Source of the DNA: Thermococcus sp.
GTDB lineage: Archaea > Methanobacteriota_B > Thermococci > Thermococcales > Thermococcaceae
Length of the DNA: 64,000 nt
Reading direction: 5' to 3'
Assembly: GCF_027052235.1 (NCBI RefSeq)
Contig: NZ_JALUFF010000081.1
Location: 5,136 to 69,135, forward strand
This document shows, in pieces, positions 15,911 to 23,018 of the stretch. The position numbers were made by a program, and so were the translations under genes. A model generated the notes under the pieces. It worked only from the letters and a program-made list of their open reading frames with translations, was not told where the DNA came from and made no database searches. Every line of letters starts with the position of its first letter. Position 1 is the first letter of the stretch.

Positions 15911-16837
15911 CTACTCGACGAGTTTCAGGAATATTTCCTCTAGGCTTGGCTCTTTGACCTGCATGGTGAGTATTTTCGCCCCCTGCAAAGCCACGAGATC
16001 ATGCAACTCCTCCCTAACATCCTCAGGAGCAACGACACGATATTTGTTCTCACCAAGGGGAGTCACGTTCCATTTAGCGGAACTCCAATCTACGGGCCTG
16101 TTTGTCTCAATGATTATTGTGTAACCCGCTTTCCTCAGGAACTCGCGCTTAATGTTCTCAATGCTGTCCTCTAATCGGAGTTTGCCTCTGACAATCACTC
16201 CAACAGTATCGCAGACCTCTTCCACGTGAGCCAGAATGTGGCTTGAGAAGAAGACAGTTTTGCCGGCCTTTCTCTGCTCCCTAATAATCTCCTTGAACTC
16301 TGCAATGCCCTTGGGGTCAAGACCGCTCATCGGCTCGTCGAGGATCAAAAGCTCGGGGTCATTGATCAAGGCCTGAGCGAGGAGGAGCCTCTGTCTCATT
16401 CCCTTCGAGAACTTGCCCACCTTCTTGTTCCTTACATCCTTGAGACCGACGAGGTCAAGGAGCTCGTTAATCCTCCTCCCCCTCTCGGCCTTCGGGATTT
16501 TAAACGCATCAGCGATTATATCCAGCGTTTGAGCTGGCGTTAGGAAATCCCAAAGAGTGGCGTTCTCGGGCATGTAACCAATTCTGGCCTTAACCTTGAC
16601 TAGTTTAGCCTCGTTAAACTCCCCGTCCCTGAAGACCTCCTCGCCGAAAAGCTCTATTCTCCCCTCCTGAGGAAAGATGAGGCCAAGGGTGCTGAGAATC
16701 GTCGTGCTCTTGCCTGCACCGTTTGGGCCGAGGAAACCGTAAACCTGACCCGACTTAACCTCAAGATTCAATCCATCCAAGGCCCTAACGTCCTTGTAAA
16801 CCTTAACGAGGTTCTCAATCCTGAGCATCACCATCAC
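15911..16837 (-). CDS. ABC exporter ATP-binding subunit
   Basis: GPNGAGKST, FSKGMRQR, LILDEP, SSH. Confidence 0.95.
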   Translation of the reverse strand: MMVMLRIENLVKVYKDVRALDGLNLEVKSGQVYGFLGPNGAGKSTTILSTLGLIFPQEGRIELFGEEVFRDGEFNEAKLVKVKARIGYMPENATLWDFLTPAQTLDIIADAFKIPKAERGRRINELLDLVGLKDVRNKKVGKFSKGMRQRLLLAQALINDPELLILDEPMSGLDPKGIAEFKEIIREQRKAGKTVFFSSHILAHVEEVCDTVGVIVRGKLRLEDSIENIKREFLRKAGYTIIIETNRPVDWSSAKWNVTPLGENKYRVVAPEDVREELHDLVALQGAKILTMQVKEPSLEEIFLKLVE

Positions 16838-17754
16838 CTCAAGTCCATCCTCCTGAACCTGATGAGGGCCAGCACGAGGTAAACGGGGATAAGACCCGCT
16901 ATAACTCCAGTTTGAGCTGGATTCTGTGAGAGGGCATGCTTAACCCCAAGGTATTCGACGGTATACGTGCCGTCGGGGCTGAACTTCGTCGTTTCCACGT
17001 CTTTGATAACGTCCAGCATGAGCACCTGCGGGACGTAGAAGAGGTACTTCAGGTGATACTCCCTGTAAAGCTCGTCGAGGCGCTCCTGATAGGCCGTTCT
17101 CTGCTCGGGGGAGAGCTTCGCGAAGTCTCCCCTCTCGTGGAGCCCGAACTCCTTATCGACCCTGTCCTCCGCCCATCTATCAACGATCTGAGGGGCCACA
17201 AGACCCGTGAGGAAAAATATAACAAGAGCCAGCCCCAAAGCGGTGTTGGAGGAGCGGACGAAGGTCGAAATGAGTAAACCCAGCGCTAAAAGCTGGAGCA
17301 TGGCCAGGAGAACCAAACCGTTGGCCAGCGTAAGGTCCGAGACGAGTTTTCCGCTGAGGGAGAGGCCGTAATGCTCTGTTATGGCAAAGGAGAGAAGAGT
17401 TGCGAAGACCATCGCAACCACTATGCTGACGCTCTGGCCAAGGAACTTGCCGAGCAGGTAGGAAACCCTACCAAGGGGCTTGCTTAAGGCCACCCTGATG
17501 GTTCCGTTTTCAAGGTCGGAGTTAATCCCCGTCGCTCCAGCCATGAGGGCGTATACTCCTATGAAGAGGAACGCACTGACGGCTATGTAGCCGATTAGGC
17601 TCGTCAGGAGGACTCCCTGGGGATCAGAGGCCCCTTCGAGGTTGTCCTTTACCTCCCTGAAGGCCATTGCGTAGATCAGCAAAATCAAAACCAGTATCAG
17701 CCAGAACTTCTTCGTTCGAAGGCCTTTCTTCATCTCAAGCTCAAACCCCCACAT
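16834..17754 (-). CDS. ABC-2 type permease
   Basis: ENGTIRVALSKPLGR...GKF, C-terminal FRRMDLR. Confidence 0.9.
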   Translation of the reverse strand: MWGFELEMKKGLRTKKFWLILVLILLIYAMAFREVKDNLEGASDPQGVLLTSLIGYIAVSAFLFIGVYALMAGATGINSDLENGTIRVALSKPLGRVSYLLGKFLGQSVSIVVAMVFATLLSFAITEHYGLSLSGKLVSDLTLANGLVLLAMLQLLALGLLISTFVRSSNTALGLALVIFFLTGLVAPQIVDRWAEDRVDKEFGLHERGDFAKLSPEQRTAYQERLDELYREYHLKYLFYVPQVLMLDVIKDVETTKFSPDGTYTVEYLGVKHALSQNPAQTGVIAGLIPVYLVLALIRFRRMDLR

Positions 17755-17758
17755 GCTA

Positions 17759-19276
17759 TCACCTCAGGTCTGCTCTCCTAAACCTTAGCCACGTAATGGT
17801 CAAGTAAGCAAACGTTGGAATGATCAGCATGCCCAGGTTACTTTCATGGTTTAAAATCTTATCTATCCCAGCAGGAGGAAGATTGCGCTTCTGAGAGAGC
17901 GCAGAGCTAAGGGCAACGTACTGAACCGAGGGAGCTGGGACGTACAGTGCCCTCCGGGCGAGCTCTCCCGAGTGCCCAAACGTAGTTACAAAGGCTATTG
18001 GGACTACAAAGCCCAGCAAGAAGGCGAGAACCAGCGAGAGGAGAAGTGCCTTTCTCCCCCTCATGAAGGCCGAGAGAAGGTAGCCGAGGGCCAGATACTG
18101 GAGGAGCGAGAGGAAAAGGAGGGAACCAAAGGCAAGGCCGAGTTCGAGGGTTCTACCTAAGGGAGCACCTAAGTGCAGGGCGTAGGCAACGATAAGGGCC
18201 GCGTAGAAAGCAGTTCCAATGAAGACCGCGAGGGTATCGCTGAGGAGCGTTCCCAGGAAAAAGTCTCTCCTCTTCATCGGCTTGCTCAGGAGAACCCTGA
18301 CGGTGCCGTTCTCAATTGCCGAGCCGATCGAGAGCGCCCCGAAGGGCAGAACCACGAAGGGCAAGAAAACGCCGTTCAGGGCCGAGATTACGGCATTCAA
18401 AAGGCCCGGAATACCGAAATCTGAGTGGTAATCCCCGAGCATGGTAAAGTTAAAGAATGCTGTCATGGTGGTCAGAGCGAGGAAAGCAATGAAGCGCCTG
18501 CTCTGAAGGCTCAGCCCGAGGAAAACGCCGTAAAGCCCGCGGGGGGAGAAGGAAAAACCAGGGACAGCAATAGACTCAGGACCCCTCAACTCCCTCCTCC
18601 GGAAGGCTTCCATCCCGACGAGCGACAGAAGAACGAAAACAGCCAAAAGTTGTCCAACGGCCTTATGGGAGACAGAAACGCTCTCGCCGATTGAAACAGC
18701 CCTCTCAAGGTAAACCGTCGGAATGAACGAGTAATCGGATTTTCCGAGGAGAAGGAGAACAACGAACGCCCCAAGCCCGAGGAAGACCCCGGAATCTCGG
18801 GAAGTAGCGAGGGGGATTAGGAGCAGGGCGATTCCAACAACGCCGACCAGCGAGAGCGAAAGGGCAAGGGAGCCTACGAGATAGTCTTTAACTTCGAAGC
18901 TGTGGGCTAGCATTGCAAGCGCTCCCGAGAGTGCAATCCCTAGGGTGAAAATTAGAGCAAGCTTTAACCCCTCGAAGGCCCAGCTTAGGAAATAGCGCCT
19001 CCTCGTGAGGGGCTTTGAGACCATCAAGATGACGCTCCCCCTCTCGAAGTCCGAGCCGAAGCGCGGGAGGAGAATTATTAACAGGACTGGTATGAAGAGG
19101 AACTTGATGAAATTCGGAAGCCATTTGACGAGCAAGTCGGCGGTTATCAGGTGACCGAGCACTTCGGAGGATATGTTGGGATAGTGAGTGGTAAATCTGG
19201 AAACGTCTATCTCGACCGCTATGGCCGGGAAGAGGAACATTACAAAGATTGTAGAGGAGTTTACTTGTTTTTTCAC
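17759..19276 (-). CDS. Tandem (two-domain) ABC-2 type permease
   Basis: Two copies of the E.G.....SKP..R motif and of the F.R.(D/E)LR ending; RBS GGAGGGTG before GTG 19276. Confidence 0.85.
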   Translation of the reverse strand: MKKQVNSSTIFVMFLFPAIAVEIDVSRFTTHYPNISSEVLGHLITADLLVKWLPNFIKFLFIPVLLIILLPRFGSDFERGSVILMVSKPLTRRRYFLSWAFEGLKLALIFTLGIALSGALAMLAHSFEVKDYLVGSLALSLSLVGVVGIALLLIPLATSRDSGVFLGLGAFVVLLLLGKSDYSFIPTVYLERAVSIGESVSVSHKAVGQLLAVFVLLSLVGMEAFRRRELRGPESIAVPGFSFSPRGLYGVFLGLSLQSRRFIAFLALTTMTAFFNFTMLGDYHSDFGIPGLLNAVISALNGVFLPFVVLPFGALSIGSAIENGTVRVLLSKPMKRRDFFLGTLLSDTLAVFIGTAFYAALIVAYALHLGAPLGRTLELGLAFGSLLFLSLLQYLALGYLLSAFMRGRKALLLSLVLAFLLGFVVPIAFVTTFGHSGELARRALYVPAPSVQYVALSSALSQKRNLPPAGIDKILNHESNLGMLIIPTFAYLTITWLRFRRADLR

Positions 19277-19327
19277 AGTACCACCCTCCGAGAGCTAGCT
19301 AATAATTTAAATAATAAACCTGCTCCA

Positions 19328-19348
19328 CAAAGAAATAATAAAAAAGCG
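19328..19348 (-). terminator. Oligo-T terminator after the precursor peptide genes
   Basis: Minus strand CGCTTTTTTATTATTTCTTTG begins 7 nt after the TGA of precursor B. Confidence 0.55.
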
Positions 19349-19354
19349 AGTGTG

Positions 19355-19534
19355 TCAAATATCAATCACTTGGCAATCAGGATCTCCTCCCCAGTCCCAG
19401 AAGCATCCGGTGTCTGTCATCTCACAGCCTTCTCCAAATGCACACTCAATGTAGCAGTTGTCACTGTTGCAGTTGTCACTAGTTATGCATAGAGGTTCAA
19501 TTGGATTGATATTCTTGGTTAACTTCTTGAACAT
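19355..19534 (-). CDS. Cys-rich RiPP precursor B, 59 aa: MFKKLTKNINPIEPLCITSDNCNSDNCYIECAFGEGCEMTDTGCFWDWGGDPDCQVIDI
   Basis: Translated by hand (below the ORF-track cutoff); RBS GGAGGTGA 6 nt before ATG; 7 Cys; leader shared with precursor A; downstream of an rSAM/SPASM gene. Confidence 0.9.
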   Translation of the reverse strand: MFKKLTKNINPIEPLCITSDNCNSDNCYIECAFGEGCEMTDTGCFWDWGGDPDCQVIDI

Positions 19535-19548
19535 TTTCTTTCACCTCC

Positions 19549-19689
19549 TTATACATCTATAATTGTACACGGGCTTTCTGAGGTGCAAATATCTATCAAC
19601 AGACAACTTAGGTCTCTAGAACCACAGTCAATATCAACAAAGCACTGTGGCTCCACCGGGTTGCCACCTGCGTTCAACTTCTTAAACAC
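19549..19689 (-). CDS. Cys-rich RiPP precursor A, 46 aa: MFKKLNAGGNPVEPQCFVDIDCGSRDLSCLLIDICTSESPCTIIDV
   Basis: Translated by hand; RBS GGAGGTGA 6 nt before GTG; 8-nt overlap with the 3' end of the rSAM gene; 5 Cys. Confidence 0.9.
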   Translation of the reverse strand: MFKKLNAGGNPVEPQCFVDIDCGSRDLSCLLIDICTSESPCTIIDV

Positions 19690-21133
19690 CTGCTATCACC
19701 TCCTTTGGTTTTTGGGTTTTGGCCTCATCGGACTCCTCGGCCCTCACCCCTCCCAGGGGTGAGCGTGAGAAGACCTTATTCAACCAGTCTTCGTCAAGAT
19801 TCGAGTAAAGCCAGGAACCCCACCTCACGAGAGCAAACATATAGGAGCAGTGGAACTCGTCGGGGAGAAACACGTCACCGTTGTAGTAGTGGTTGTTGTA
19901 TATACAGCCACCGCCGCAGTAAGCCCTTATCGGGCAGCTCGAACACTTTGGTCTCTTGTCCACAGTATGGTGAAGGATCTTCTGAATGAACTCGTTCTCC
20001 CACCTGAAATCATCAACGTGACCAACCACAAATTTTTCCATTCCAACGAACCTGTGGCAGGGATACATCTTCCCGTCCGCCGAAACCCCGAAGTAGCTCC
20101 TGGCAACACCACAGGGATAATGGCGGTAGGTGCCGGAGTAAATCATGTGAACCATCTCACGGAGCTTTGTGTAAACGATTCCTTTCTCCTTGTAGTGTTC
20201 AAGCTCGTCCTTCGCTATCTTTTCGAGGGCAGATTCAACGAGTTTAGCATGCTTCTCAGTCAGTGGTGTACTTGTGGTAGCTGGCTCAAGATGAACGCTC
20301 CTGAAACCAAAATCAACGAAGAATCTGTAAATCTCATAGTATCTATCAAGCTGCTCTGGCAGAACCGTTGCGCGGATGCTAACCTTAACGCCACGCTCAA
20401 GCATCTTCTCTGCATTCCTCGCTACAACATCAAAGGTTGGATATCCCCCACGTAGAGGTCTGTTGTTATTTTGAATGTCTCTAGGGCCATCAAAGCTTAG
20501 AGTCACCGTGAAGTTGTTCTCAAGGAAAAAGTCAATGACCTTCTCTGTGACGAGATAACCGTTGGTTGTTATGCTGAAGGTAACAACTTTATCGTGTTCT
20601 TTAGCCTTCTCTTTTGCATATTGAACCAGCTCCCGAATCAGCGGAAAGTTCAACAAAGGTTCGCCACCAAAGAACTGAATGTTAACGACCTTCTTCCCCT
20701 CTCTCATTAGCAGGTCAATGGCCTTTTTAGCAACTTCTGGACTCATTCTAGTATTGGGAGTGTGGTAAGTACCGCCATCACCATAACAGTAAACACAAGC
20801 AAAGTTGCAGTCTTCCATGACGTTAAGGGAAATGGACGAAATCTTGGATTTTATGATTCCGAGATATGGCTTTACGGGTGGCTTAGATTCATAGAATACG
20901 CGACGGAGATCTTCATCAGATTTAATCTCCTTTATCAAAGAATCCCAGTCAGATGTAGAGTATTCCTTTACAAAACGATCCTTGCCATCACCCCAGCCCA
21001 ACTCTGCCACAAACCTGCAGAAGTCATAGGTTTTCTTATCGACCTCAAATAGGGTTCCTGTAGGTGAATGCAGAACAAAGTACTTGCCACCAACGTGGAA
21101 GGTGTGCAATTCCGGTCTCACGTCACCAGACAT
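19682..21133 (-). CDS. Radical SAM/SPASM peptide maturase with N-terminal RRE-like domain (ranthipeptide-synthase type)
   Basis: CNFACVYC, FFGGEPLL, SITTNG, SPASM CG...YPCHRF...CSSCPIRAYCGGGC...C; N-terminal LHTFHVGGKYFVLHSPTGTLFEVD resembles a PqqD/RRE domain. Confidence 0.92.
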   Translation of the reverse strand: MSGDVRPELHTFHVGGKYFVLHSPTGTLFEVDKKTYDFCRFVAELGWGDGKDRFVKEYSTSDWDSLIKEIKSDEDLRRVFYESKPPVKPYLGIIKSKISSISLNVMEDCNFACVYCYGDGGTYHTPNTRMSPEVAKKAIDLLMREGKKVVNIQFFGGEPLLNFPLIRELVQYAKEKAKEHDKVVTFSITTNGYLVTEKVIDFFLENNFTVTLSFDGPRDIQNNNRPLRGGYPTFDVVARNAEKMLERGVKVSIRATVLPEQLDRYYEIYRFFVDFGFRSVHLEPATTSTPLTEKHAKLVESALEKIAKDELEHYKEKGIVYTKLREMVHMIYSGTYRHYPCGVARSYFGVSADGKMYPCHRFVGMEKFVVGHVDDFRWENEFIQKILHHTVDKRPKCSSCPIRAYCGGGCIYNNHYYNGDVFLPDEFHCSYMFALVRWGSWLYSNLDEDWLNKVFSRSPLGGVRAEESDEAKTQKPKEVIAGV

Positions 21134-21143
21134 TGTACTCTAA

Positions 21144-21188
21144 CACCTCCGAAAAAAAAAACTGTAGTTAATGTTTATAAGATTTTCT
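21144..21188 (-). promoter_or_regulatory. Own promoter and RBS of the rSAM gene, containing a T10 tract
   Basis: Minus strand AGAAAATC-TTATAAAC (21173-21188), T10 (21152-21161), GGAGGTG (21144-21150). Confidence 0.6.
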
Positions 21189-21212
21189 ATTCATTTGTAA
21201 AACAATAGAGTA

Positions 21213-22211
21213 TTAAAGTTTTTCTACTCTATCAAAACGACCAAAAATAATCAAAAACACATCCCCAAGTGATAGTTCTTCAACTCTAATCTGCATGGCA
21301 CCCTTTGAGGATAAAACCCTCACGAACTCATCCACCTCATTGATTTTAAGATAGGCCGTGACATGAGTGTAGTTCCCTTTGGTAAGACACCGAGCCATAT
21401 GCCATCTGTTGCATTCAACTTTTCCCTTCACAATCGCACTGACCTTTTTATCAACTGGAACCCTGAGCTTCCTGCTTATCTCCTCAGGCTTTCCCTCAAG
21501 GATGGGCCTCTTGTTGAAGAGTAGAACCCTGTCACTCAGCTTCTCTGCCTCCTGAAGGTCGTGGGTGGTGAGGATAACAGTCGTTCCAAAGTCCTGAACG
21601 AGGGTCATTATTGCGTCATGTATCTCGCTCTTGGTTATCACATCGAGAAAAACCGTCGGCTCGTCGAGTATGAGGTACTTCGGCCTGACCACTAGTGCGG
21701 AGGCGATGTAAACCTTCTGCTTCATTCCGGCCGAGAGCTTCTGGTACCATTCGTTCCTCTTCTCCCACAGGTTCAGCAGTTTGAGGGCGTACTCTATGCG
21801 TTCCCCCATCTCAGCCTCGGGAACCTTCCACAGCCTCGCGATGAACTGAAGGTTCCTGTAAACGCTCAGGCGCCACTGGAATACCCCCCACATGTCCCTC
21901 TCGCCAGTGAAAACCGTGAACATCTCCCTCGCAACTTTGCCGTGCTCCCTAAAGCTGTCGTGGCCGTCGATGAGCAGTTTTCCAGAACTCGGCTCAAGCA
22001 GGCCGTTGGCGATTTTACAGAGGGTCGTCTTTCCCGCACCGTTGGGACCGAGGAGGCCGAATATCTCCCCCTCCCTCACCTGAAAGCTAAGATTCACGAG
22101 GGCCGGAATCTCCTCCCTGGGTCTTCCGAGAAAATCACGGAGACTGTCCAGATCGAAGAAGCCCCCAAAAGGAGGTGGATAGTACTTGGTCAGGTTAACT
22201 GCCTCAATCAT
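21213..22211 (-). CDS. ABC exporter ATP-binding subunit
   Basis: GPNGAGKTT, LSAGMKQK, LILDEP, LTTH. Confidence 0.95.
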   Translation of the reverse strand: MIEAVNLTKYYPPPFGGFFDLDSLRDFLGRPREEIPALVNLSFQVREGEIFGLLGPNGAGKTTLCKIANGLLEPSSGKLLIDGHDSFREHGKVAREMFTVFTGERDMWGVFQWRLSVYRNLQFIARLWKVPEAEMGERIEYALKLLNLWEKRNEWYQKLSAGMKQKVYIASALVVRPKYLILDEPTVFLDVITKSEIHDAIMTLVQDFGTTVILTTHDLQEAEKLSDRVLLFNKRPILEGKPEEISRKLRVPVDKKVSAIVKGKVECNRWHMARCLTKGNYTHVTAYLKINEVDEFVRVLSSKGAMQIRVEELSLGDVFLIIFGRFDRVEKL

Positions 22212-22220
22212 CCAACCACC

Positions 22221-23018
22221 TCACACGTGACCCAATGTGCCAAGCTGCATCGCCTTTCTAACGCCCCACCTAAACGTGGCGATTCCTACTAAAAACATAA
22301 TACCGGTAGTTAGGATAAGGTTCACAAAACTCGGCCAGATTTGAGACACTGAATAGCCCCCGCCCATCGTCAGCCTGGCCATCTCAAGAATGTACCTCTC
22401 GGGGTGTATCTTGGAAATAGGCTGGAGCCACCAGGGGAGCGCGTCGGGCGGGAAGTAAAGACCGCTCACGAGCTGGGAGGTGAGGTTGAGGAACCAGTTT
22501 ACAGGATCCTGCCTCGCTTTAGTGGCAGTCCGAAAGCCCGCCGAAAAAAGTTCGAGGGCAAATGTGAGGGTGAAGCCAGCAAGGATAACTAGCAGGGCAC
22601 CGAGGTTGAGGTGAATAACTAAGCCGTAGAAGAGAACGAAGACTACCGTTATTAGGCCCATTATCATAAGGCTCCAGACGACATTCCAGGCATTTATTCC
22701 TACAAAGACCGCTACCATTCCAGCGGGGGAGGCATATAGCATCGGAAAGCTCCTCCCAATCAGGAGCTTGGAAAGGCTACCGCGCGGAAGGAATATTATG
22801 TTGTGCACGATGAAGCCTATCAGAAAGAACTGAAGGAAAGAGTTAGTTCCGTACTGCTCGATGTTCGCGTTTATGGTCACCAAACTGGCGAATATTCCCA
22901 TGACTGCAACCTGGATTAGAAGGCCTATCAGGTAGCTTACCACGTCCCAGCGGTAGCTGAAAAAGACCTCTCTCTGAACATTGAAGAACTCCCGGACTAT
23001 TTTAACACCGTCCCTCAT
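22221..23018 (-). CDS. ABC-2 type permease
   Basis: About 6 TM; SGLYFPPDALPWWLQPISKIHP motif. Confidence 0.88.
   Translation of the reverse strand: MRDGVKIVREFFNVQREVFFSYRWDVVSYLIGLLIQVAVMGIFASLVTINANIEQYGTNSFLQFFLIGFIVHNIIFLPRGSLSKLLIGRSFPMLYASPAGMVAVFVGINAWNVVWSLMIMGLITVVFVLFYGLVIHLNLGALLVILAGFTLTFALELFSAGFRTATKARQDPVNWFLNLTSQLVSGLYFPPDALPWWLQPISKIHPERYILEMARLTMGGGYSVSQIWPSFVNLILTTGIMFLVGIATFRWGVRKAMQLGTLGHV

What the first reader, a model, noticed from the sequence alone, without database searches (positions are those of the whole stretch)
19490..19689. Shared 15-residue leader MFKKL-x4-NP(V/I)EP, and no leader peptidase in the cluster
Seen: MFKKLNAGGNPVEPQ-C versus MFKKLTKNINPIEPL-C, with the first Cys at position 16 in both and divergent cores; no protease gene or C39 domain among the cluster genes. 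Inference: the leader is the RRE-binding motif for one promiscuous maturase. Cleavage is by an unlinked protease or does not occur. The motif is a search handle for a wider family.
Basis: partly seen in the sequence, partly recalled or inferred. Interest (0 to 1): 0.65.

Follow-up and report, generated by a model that had tools for sequence, protein, structure and literature searches.

The report
Thermococcus freyrasin-type peptide leaders
Two tiny unannotated genes in a Thermococcus genome encode cysteine/aspartate-rich peptides with the same short N-terminal leader as the bacterial peptide freyrasin, so this is an archaeal, probably heat-stable member of a known family of enzyme-stapled peptides, not a new kind of system.

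Summary
Two minus-strand ORFs, A (19549-19689, 46 aa) and B (19355-19534, 59 aa), start MFKKLNAGGNPVEPQ-C and MFKKLTKNINPIEPL-C. Each has a strong Shine-Dalgarno site and lies just downstream of a radical SAM/SPASM gene. No protease or C39 domain is detectable in the cluster or in eight orthologous Thermococcaceae clusters.

- The enzyme has an N-terminal RRE fold and is most similar to PapB and CteB.
- One maturase serves 1-3 divergent precursors per genome.
- 88% of 179 core Cys residues carry Asp/Glu at +3/+4, the PapB substrate code.

The leader is not a new handle. It matches the freyrasin PapA leader (MLKQIN-x6-EP versus MFKKLN-x6-EP) and resembles the SCIFF leader (HIKVLN...PGC). The family-wide conserved part is M-F-[KR]-[KR]-L-N plus one Pro before the first Cys. 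NP[VI]EP occurs in only 8 of 28 collected precursors.

The type pap cluster also lacks a protease, so that absence is normal for the family. Whether the leader is removed remains open. PapB works without a leader in vitro, which weakens any claim that RRE binding is obligatory.

The scan has noted freyrasin-type precursors before on other DNA (Collinsella). Verdict: a new member of a known kind.

The parts
19549..19689 (-). Precursor A (46 aa). The leader is residues 1-15 (nt 19645-19689). The core has 5 Cys, each with Asp/Glu at +3/+4.
   Evidence: Orthologues follow the radical SAM gene in other Thermococcus genomes. An 85%-identical 46-aa protein is in the public collection.
19355..19534 (-). 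Precursor B (59 aa). The leader is residues 1-15 (nt 19490-19534). The core has 7 Cys, each with Asp/Glu at +3/+4.
   Evidence: An orthologue is the third precursor in G016, MFKKLNKRANPVEPMC...WGGDPDCQVIDI.
19695..19703 (-). Shine-Dalgarno site GGAGGTGAT of precursor A, inside the 3' end of the radical SAM ORF. The GTG start of A overlaps the radical SAM stop codon by 8 nt, which suggests translational coupling.
   Evidence: conserved in all orthologous loci.
19541..19548 (-). Shine-Dalgarno site GGAGGTGA of precursor B.
19682..21133 (-). PapB/CteB-like radical SAM/SPASM maturase (483 aa). It has an RRE domain at residues ~1-86 (nt 20876-21133), CX3CX2C at C109/C113/C116, SPASM cysteines C341, C359, C397, C400, C406, C410 and C429, and a disordered tail at 458-483.
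19743..19763 (-). Conserved hairpin CTCACCCC-N5-GGGGTGAG inside the 3' end of the radical SAM ORF, about 55 nt upstream of precursor A. The stem is invariant and the loop varies. Its function is unknown.
19328..19345 (-). T-rich tract (TTTTTTATTATTTCTTTG) 10 nt after the stop of precursor B. It looks like an archaeal oligo-T terminator.
   Evidence: Sequence read directly; the terminator role is an inference.
21174..21180 (-). TATA-like box (TTATAAA) about 40 nt upstream of the radical SAM start codon, followed by the SD site GGAGGTG (21144-21150).
   Evidence: Sequence read directly; the promoter role is an inference.
21213..23018 (-). Upstream ABC-2 transporter: a permease (22221-23018, 265 aa) and an ATPase (21213-22211, 332 aa).
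   Evidence: syntenic in 7 of 8 orthologous loci.
15911..19276 (-). Downstream ABC-2 transporter: a tandem-duplicated permease (17759-19276, 505 aa), a permease (16834-17754, 306 aa) and a DrrA-like ATPase (15911-16837, 308 aa).

Best explanation
ORFs A and B are two precursor peptides of a freyrasin-type ranthipeptide system in a Thermococcus genome. The 483-aa radical SAM/SPASM enzyme encoded just upstream most likely joins each core Cys sulfur to the side-chain carbon of the Asp or Glu 3-4 residues downstream. That would give 5 rings in A and 7 in B. The shared 15-residue N-terminus is a PapA/SCIFF-type leader. Its family-wide conserved part is M-F-[KR]-[KR]-L-[NT], and I infer that this part docks on the enzyme's N-terminal RRE domain (residues ~1-86). 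NP[VI]EP is a subfamily-specific spacer; only the Pro before the first Cys is kept across the family. One maturase serves both divergent cores. The flanking ABC-2 transporters are inferred to export the product, protect the producer, or both. As in the pap type cluster, no leader peptidase is encoded locally, so the leader is either removed by an unlinked protease or kept. This is unresolved.

Shown here: the genes, their conservation, the Cys-x2-3-Asp/Glu code, the RRE fold, the leader homology to PapA and the absence of a protease. Inferred: the chemistry, leader-RRE binding and the transporter roles.
For: Enzyme identity:
- The best NCBIfam hit is the PapB ranthipeptide maturase (289 bits), followed by the Nif11, QhpD and SCIFF maturases.
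- It is 32% identical to P. polymyxa PapB over 94% of its length (E 4e-61).
- It aligns full-length to CteB 5WGG (E 4e-59). The AlphaFold model (pLDDT 89.6) superposes on 5WGG with a target-normalised TM-score of 0.87 over 457 columns.
- The RRE topology is strand-strand-strand-helix-helix-helix at residues 9-81.

Precursors:
- All eight orthologous radical SAM genes (68-89% identity) in 97 Thermococcaceae genomes are followed by 1-3 Cys/Asp-rich small ORFs with MF[KR][KR]L leaders.
- A profile of 17 precursors hits only these loci among 133 genomes of the phylum, plus one orphan copy.
- 158 of 179 core Cys residues have Asp/Glu at +3/+4, against 63 +/- 6 (maximum 83) in 2000 shuffles.

Leader homology:
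- PapA read from the P. polymyxa locus is MLKQINVIAGVKEPVRAYGC. M1, K3, N6, E13 and P14 are identical in position to MFKKLNAGGNPVEPQC, and positions 2 and 5 are hydrophobic in both.
- More distant archaeal relatives have M(KH)MKKLNG-x6-xPLC leaders.
- A SCIFF precursor reads MKHIKVLN...KKPGC.
- A conserved leader Asn was proposed to be needed for RRE binding in PapA (PMC9413430, citing Precord 2019). Deleting the PapB RRE abolished modification in vivo and was rescued by the RRE in trans (PMC12715619).

Protease:
- Pfam finds none.
- The pap locus likewise holds only ABC genes, PapA and PapB.
Against:
- The enzyme scores below NCBIfam's curated PapB cut-off (289 against 340 bits).
- PapB modifies leaderless and foreign-leader peptides in vitro, and even a variant lacking the RRE keeps some activity (PMC12715619). 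Leader-RRE binding may therefore only aid the reaction.
- Precursor B and three other family members have Thr, and one has Gly, where PapA has the supposedly critical Asn.
- RRE sequence divergence does not track leader type.
Confidence: 0.75

Rival explanations
1. The conserved N-terminus is mainly an export or immunity signal read by one of the two flanking ABC-2 transporters. It may also act as a solubility or protection tag. The maturase would then find its substrates through the Cys-x2-3-Asp/Glu motifs alone.
For: PapB cross-links leaderless peptides and peptides with a PqqA leader in vitro, and needs little beyond the Cys-Xn-Asp/Glu motif (PMC12715619). Two ABC systems are strictly syntenic with the maturase and precursors. 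There is no protease, so the leader may stay on until or after export.
Against: The enzyme keeps a well-folded RRE domain. The same leader type is found in PapA and in a SCIFF precursor, and the SCIFF locus read here has no ABC transporter next to it. In vivo, PapB without its RRE was inactive and was rescued in trans (PMC12715619).
Confidence: 0.15
2. The shared N-terminus reflects DNA-level processes rather than selection on the peptide. These would be tandem duplication or gene conversion between neighbouring precursor genes, plus constraints from the overlap with the radical SAM stop codon and the ribosome-binding site.
For: Precursor A's first three codons overlap the radical SAM stop codon. 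In G016 a 107-nt copy (92% identical) of the radical SAM 3' end, the SD site and the first five leader codons precedes a third precursor, so cassettes are duplicated through this segment.
Against: Six of eight shared leader residues use different codons in A and B. The motif persists in second and third precursors that do not overlap the radical SAM gene. It also persists in loci where the precursor lies upstream of the enzyme.
Confidence: 0.05
3. The two small ORFs are chance open frames and are not expressed.
For: They are unannotated and short, and no transcript data could be obtained.
Against: Both have strong SD sites. Cys positions and leaders are conserved in nine genomes of three genera while the cores vary. 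The Cys-acid periodicity is far beyond shuffles. Public gene calls exist for some members.
Confidence: 0.02

Closest known systems
Freyrasin system PapA/PapB of Paenibacillus polymyxa (ranthipeptide; Cys-to-Asp beta-carbon thioethers in CX3D motifs)
   Same: The maturase has the same RRE, radical SAM and SPASM layout and is 32% identical. The precursors are about 50 aa long with repeated C-x2-3-D/E. The leader has the same residues and spacing, M-hydrophobic-K-[QK]-[IL]-N-x6-E-P. An ABC-2 transporter with a DrrA-like ATPase is in the cluster. No protease is in the cluster.
   Different: The host is a hyperthermophilic archaeon. The precursors lie downstream of the enzyme and are translationally coupled to it, whereas PapA lies upstream. 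There are 2 (elsewhere 1-3) divergent precursors per enzyme. The leader is shorter (15 against 19 residues before the first Cys). CX2D/E is common beside CX3D/E. There are two ABC-2 systems and no ABC_membrane-type exporter. The enzyme scores below the curated PapB cut-off (289 against 340 bits).
SCIFF peptides and their maturases (ScfA/ScfB; CteA/CteB, PDB 5WGG)
   Same: CteB is the closest solved structure (E 4e-59; target-normalised TM-score 0.87). The SCIFF leader read here, MKHIKVLN...KKPGC, shares the basic-hydrophobic-L-N start and a Pro before the first Cys.
   Different: No match to a SCIFF precursor model appeared. The enzyme scores 247 bits against a cut-off of 425 for TIGR03974. 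SCIFF cores are C-x-x-x-C-rich with Thr acceptors rather than Cys-Asp repeats, and the SCIFF locus read here has no neighbouring transporter.
QhpD/QhpC (quinohemoprotein amine dehydrogenase maturation)
   Same: The chemistry is the same, Cys-Asp and Cys-Glu thioethers (PMC8326336). The radical SAM enzyme hits the QhpD model at 273 bits.
   Different: QhpC is an enzyme subunit rather than a small leader-bearing peptide. The score is below the cut-off of 453 bits, and no qhp genes are present here.
Second Thermococcus radical SAM/precursor family (MEFEVVNPGDKTK...CGVLDQGGCPFPEDWECWWPEDICYRPEPI)
   Same: It occurs in the same genus. The maturase is about 40% identical. The precursor lies directly downstream and carries C-x3-D/E motifs. 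The same CTCACCCC/GGGGTGAG hairpin sits at the 3' end of the radical SAM gene.
   Different: The leader is different and has no MFKKLN. The window's genome does not carry this family.

Membership tests
PapB-family ranthipeptide maturase (NCBIfam NF047865) | HMM score at or above the curated cut-off (340 bits) | tested here: not met
   It is the best-scoring family, but at 288.9 bits (E 5e-86), below 340.
PapB-family ranthipeptide maturase (NCBIfam NF047865) | Radical SAM CX3CX2C motif plus a seven-Cys SPASM domain for two auxiliary clusters | tested here: met
   C109, C113, C116, C341, C359, C397, C400, C406, C410 and C429 are invariant in 52 homologues. Pfam finds Radical_SAM, Fer4_12 and SPASM.
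PapB-family ranthipeptide maturase (NCBIfam NF047865) | N-terminal RRE (PqqD-like winged helix) domain | tested here: met
   The AlphaFold model has strands 9-14, 17-22 and 27-31, then helices 33-57, 60-72 and 74-81, at pLDDT 91-97. The region aligns with the CteB N-terminus. The PapB RRE is residues 1-86 (PMC12715619).
PapB-family ranthipeptide maturase (NCBIfam NF047865) | Forms S-C(beta/gamma) thioethers between Cys and Asp/Glu | not testable with these tools
   This needs mass spectrometry or NMR of the modified peptide.
Freyrasin-type (PapA-like) precursor | Repeated Cys-x(2-3)-Asp/Glu motifs in a short acidic core | tested here: met
   All 5 Cys in A and all 7 in B qualify. Across the family the count is 158 of 179, against 63 +/- 6 in shuffles.
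Freyrasin-type (PapA-like) precursor | Leader with a basic-hydrophobic-Asn start and an E-P eight residues later | tested here: met
   MFKKLN-x6-EP compares with PapA MLKQIN-x6-EP. 20 of 28 collected precursors fit [KRQ][KRQ][LI]N-x6-xP. Precursor B has Thr in place of the Asn.
SCIFF (ScfA precursor / ScfB maturase TIGR03974) | Matches to the curated precursor and maturase models | tested here: not met
   No SCIFF precursor model hit appeared at E up to 10. The maturase scores 247 bits against a cut-off of 425.
Cys-every-fifth RiPP CefA/CefB (NF038108/NF038107) | Matches to the curated precursor and maturase models | tested here: not met
   Only 4 of 17 precursors give weak CefA hits (best E 8.8e-5). 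The maturase scores 123 bits against a cut-off of 600.
Double-glycine leader / C39-peptidase ABC exporter systems | A C39 peptidase domain on the exporter and a GG/GA cleavage motif in the leader | tested here: not met
   No C39 or other peptidase domain is found in any cluster protein. No GG motif sits at the leader-core boundary.

The most novel reading that the evidence does not exclude
The leader start, the maturase's disordered 3' tail and the invariant CTCACCCC-N5-GGGGTGAG hairpin together form a nucleic-acid-level junction module. This module would control precursor expression, for example through mRNA processing or stabilisation. It would also serve as the homology arm through which precursor cassettes are captured and swapped between Thermococcus clusters. 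The products could be leader-retaining, multiply stapled peptides that work at around 85 degrees C.
Probability: 0.2. Interest if true: 0.55.

Novelty: new member of a known kind. Interest (0 to 1): 0.35.

Why it matters
PapB is being developed as a promiscuous biocatalyst for making peptide macrocycles. A homologue from a hyperthermophile that naturally handles two or three different cores would be a heat-stable alternative, and it comes with a ready set of natural substrates. No archaeal ranthipeptide product has been isolated in the papers I could search. Several cultured strains carry this cluster (T. cleftensis, T. celericrescens, T. aciditolerans and probably T. indicus), so the open question of whether and how ranthipeptide leaders are removed could be tested directly. 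The finding also shows that the PapA/SCIFF leader architecture spans bacteria and archaea.

Tried and rejected
- My first DNA pattern had one N too many and found nothing. The corrected pattern worked.
- The two 2-mismatch pattern hits in G011 and G082 are not next to a related radical SAM gene. I treat them as chance.
- PDB searches with the peptide and with the precursor profile gave only noise.
- No curated NCBIfam precursor family fits.
- I asked whether a prolyl oligopeptidase could cut after the invariant Pro. The genome has no Peptidase_S9_N match, so I dropped the idea.
- I asked whether RRE divergence tracks leader type. The RRE is the most divergent domain in every comparison, at 19-24% identity for relatives with the same leader type and with a different one. 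This is not informative.
- I tried to model leader and RRE in one chain by reading through the natural overlap with a four-letter frameshift word. No word at the junction is unique within the gene, so the model was not made.
- Precord 2019 (PMC7362900) and Grove 2017 (PMC6443407) are not held. Their content is cited only through papers that were read.
- Rfam has nothing in 19200-21300.

Full report
**1. The observation**

The ORF listing and the sequence show two small ORFs on the minus strand.
- A: 19549-19689, GTG start, 46 aa, MFKKLNAGGNPVEPQC...
- B: 19355-19534, ATG start, 59 aa, MFKKLTKNINPIEPLC...

The first Cys is residue 16 in both, and the cores differ. A has GGAGGTGAT and B has GGAGGTGA 5-6 nt before the start codon. 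A's GTG overlaps the stop codon of the upstream radical SAM gene (19682-21133) by 8 nt.

A degenerate DNA pattern for FKKL-x4-NP[VI]EP hits only these two sites in the window, against 0 in 100 shuffles. It hits only these two sites in the whole 1.89-Mb assembly. Six of the eight shared residues after Met are encoded by different synonymous codons in A and B. The similarity is therefore maintained at the peptide level and is not a recent DNA copy.

**2. The surroundings**

All genes from 23018 to 15911 lie on the minus strand, in this order:
- an ABC-2 permease and an ATPase (22221-23018, 21213-22211);
- the radical SAM/SPASM enzyme;
- precursors A and B;
- a tandem-duplicated ABC-2 permease (17759-19276);
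- an ABC-2 permease (16834-17754);
- a DrrA-like ATPase (15911-16837).

No protease or C39 domain is found, even at E up to 1 on the unassigned N-terminal half of the 505-aa permease. A TATA-like box and an SD site precede the radical SAM gene. A T-rich tract follows B. This suggests a unit of radical SAM gene, A and B; that reading is an inference. G+C drops to 0.42-0.47 across the enzyme and precursor segment, against 0.52-0.55 around it.

**3. The enzyme**

- The best NCBIfam hit is the PapB ranthipeptide maturase (289 bits, below the curated 340). The Nif11, QhpD and SCIFF maturases follow.
- The enzyme is 32% identical to P. polymyxa PapB.
- It aligns from residue 9 to 441 with CteB, PDB 5WGG (E 4e-59).
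- An AlphaFold model built on 52 homologues has a mean pLDDT of 89.6. It shows three strands and three helices at residues 9-81, which is the RRE topology, followed by the radical SAM barrel and the SPASM domain. The tail at 458-483 is disordered.
- The model superposes on 5WGG with a target-normalised TM-score of 0.87 over 457 columns.
- The CX3CX2C motif and the SPASM cysteines are invariant.

**4. Recurrence**

The family is Thermococcaceae. Related records and named proteins are Thermococcus.
- Among 97 genomes of the family, the exact motif occurs at 8 sites in 6 genomes. Every site is directly downstream of an orthologue of the radical SAM gene.
- Orthologues at 68-89% identity exist in eight other genomes of three genera. 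Each is followed by 1-3 Cys/Asp-rich ORFs.
- Synteny with both ABC systems is conserved, and no protease appears in any locus.
- A profile of 17 precursors finds only these loci in 133 genomes of the phylum. The one exception is an orphan precursor in G040 that has lost the adjacent enzyme.

In the alignment, F2, L5 and the Pro before the first Cys are invariant. Positions 3-4 are always K or R. Position 6 is Asn in 13 of 17 sequences. NP[VI]EP occurs in only 8 of the 28 precursors collected overall.

**5. The wider family**

I read the pap locus around P. polymyxa PapB directly.
- PapA is MLKQINVIAGVKEPVRAYGC..., with M1, K3, N6, E13 and P14 at the same positions as in precursor A.
- The pap cluster holds an ABC ATPase, two ABC-2 permeases, PapA, PapB and an ABC exporter. 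It has no protease.

More distant relatives also fit. Their radical SAM enzymes are 36-48% identical, and their records carry archaeal genes such as Hjc, SepF and Pelota. They have one to three precursors starting M(KH)MKKLNG-x6-xPLC or MFKRLT.... A SCIFF precursor read from a Hathewaya locus starts MKHIKVLN...KKPGC.

The leader therefore belongs to the known PapA/SCIFF type. The useful search handle is [KRQ][KRQ][LI]N-x6-xP, which fits 20 of 28 precursors, or a looser form that fits 27 of 28.

**6. The cores**

158 of 179 core Cys residues (88%) have Asp or Glu at +3 or +4. Shuffled cores give 63 +/- 6, with a maximum of 83. This is the motif PapB acts on: CX3(D/E), with tolerance for other spacings (PMC9413430, PMC12715619).

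**7. Mechanism and caveats**

The most likely working is as follows. The leader's MF[KR][KR]LN segment docks on the RRE. The enzyme then staples each Cys to its downstream Asp or Glu, and the ABC systems export the product, protect the cell, or both.

Literature support:
- A conserved leader Asn was proposed to be needed for RRE binding in PapA (cited in PMC9413430).
- PapB lacking its RRE is inactive in vivo unless the RRE is supplied in trans (PMC12715619).

Literature against a strict requirement:
- Purified PapB modifies leaderless and PqqA-led peptides (PMC12715619).

Whether the leader is removed is unknown here, and the pap cluster gives no local candidate either. A prolyl oligopeptidase is not encoded in this genome.

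**8. Comparison and novelty**

This is a freyrasin-type ranthipeptide system. The differences are:
- the archaeal, hyperthermophilic host;
- the order of the genes (enzyme first, then coupled precursors);
- the number of precursors;
- the shorter leader;
- the mix of CX2 and CX3 spacings;
- the enzyme scoring below the curated PapB cut-off.

Archaeal ranthipeptide clusters have been counted in genome-mining surveys (PMC12144867). No paper in the library pairs Thermococcus with ranthipeptides. A 2026 preprint describes a different, subtilosin-like radical SAM system in other Thermococcus species. The scan has itself met freyrasin-type precursors on other DNA. I rate this a new member of a known kind, of modest interest.

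**9. Noticed on the way**

- An invariant hairpin stem, CTCACCCC-N5-GGGGTGAG, with a variable loop lies inside the last 80 nt of the radical SAM ORF (19743-19763).
  - It is unique in this genome.
  - It is present in all orthologous loci and in a metagenomic relative whose protein tail is unrelated.
  - It also lies at the 3' end of the ~40%-identical paralogous radical SAM genes. In all, 13 of 15 sites in 97 genomes are at such junctions, against 0 in the control.
  - The predicted fold is -40.5 kcal/mol, z = -2.3. There is no Rfam match.
- In G016 and G055 a 107-nt copy of the radical SAM 3' end, the SD site and the first leader codons precedes a further precursor. This points to cassette capture by recombination.

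Noticed in passing
window 19743-19763 (minus strand), and the orthologous positions in L039-L046 and L071: A hairpin CTCACCCC-N5-GGGGTGAG lies inside the 3' end of the radical SAM ORF, about 55 nt before precursor A. The stem is invariant and the loop varies across orthologues, across ~40%-identical paralogues and in a metagenomic relative, although the encoded protein tail is disordered and not conserved. It is unique in this genome. 13 of 15 sites in 97 Thermococcaceae genomes lie at radical SAM-to-precursor junctions. No Rfam family matches. It may be an mRNA processing or stability element, or a recombination site.
   Followed up: partly
L040 9499-9606 (G016) and L042 12926-13033 (G055): A 107-nt relic, 92% identical to the 3' end of the radical SAM gene with its SD site and the first five leader codons, precedes an extra B-type precursor. 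The precursor cassette appears to have been captured or duplicated through this conserved junction.
   Followed up: partly
L043 11230-11616 (G017), L040 9637-10032 (G016), L042 12527-12895 (G055): A gene for a lipoprotein-like protein of about 125 aa (LGGC lipobox, no Pfam match) is inserted between the precursors and the permease in three Thermococcus genomes. It is absent from the window. It could be an immunity or binding protein.
   Followed up: no
L020, L031-L033 (G018, G023, G017, G016): A second Thermococcus radical SAM/SPASM family, about 40% identical, has its own downstream 48-aa precursor MEFEVVNPGDKTKIWIGPCGVLDQGGCPFPEDWECWWPEDICYRPEPI. This precursor has C-x3-D/E motifs and a different leader. 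The family co-occurs with the MFKKL system in four genomes and is not present in the window's genome.
   Followed up: partly
L053 1477-1665 (G040): An orphan MFRRLNK... precursor sits next to a permease gene and a fragment of the 505-aa permease. There is no adjacent maturase, so this looks like a decayed or rearranged cluster.
   Followed up: partly
window 19000-21500: G+C falls to 0.42-0.47 over the maturase and precursor segment, against 0.52-0.55 in the flanks. The cluster is present in only 9 of 97 family genomes, which fits an accessory, horizontally moving island.
   Followed up: partly
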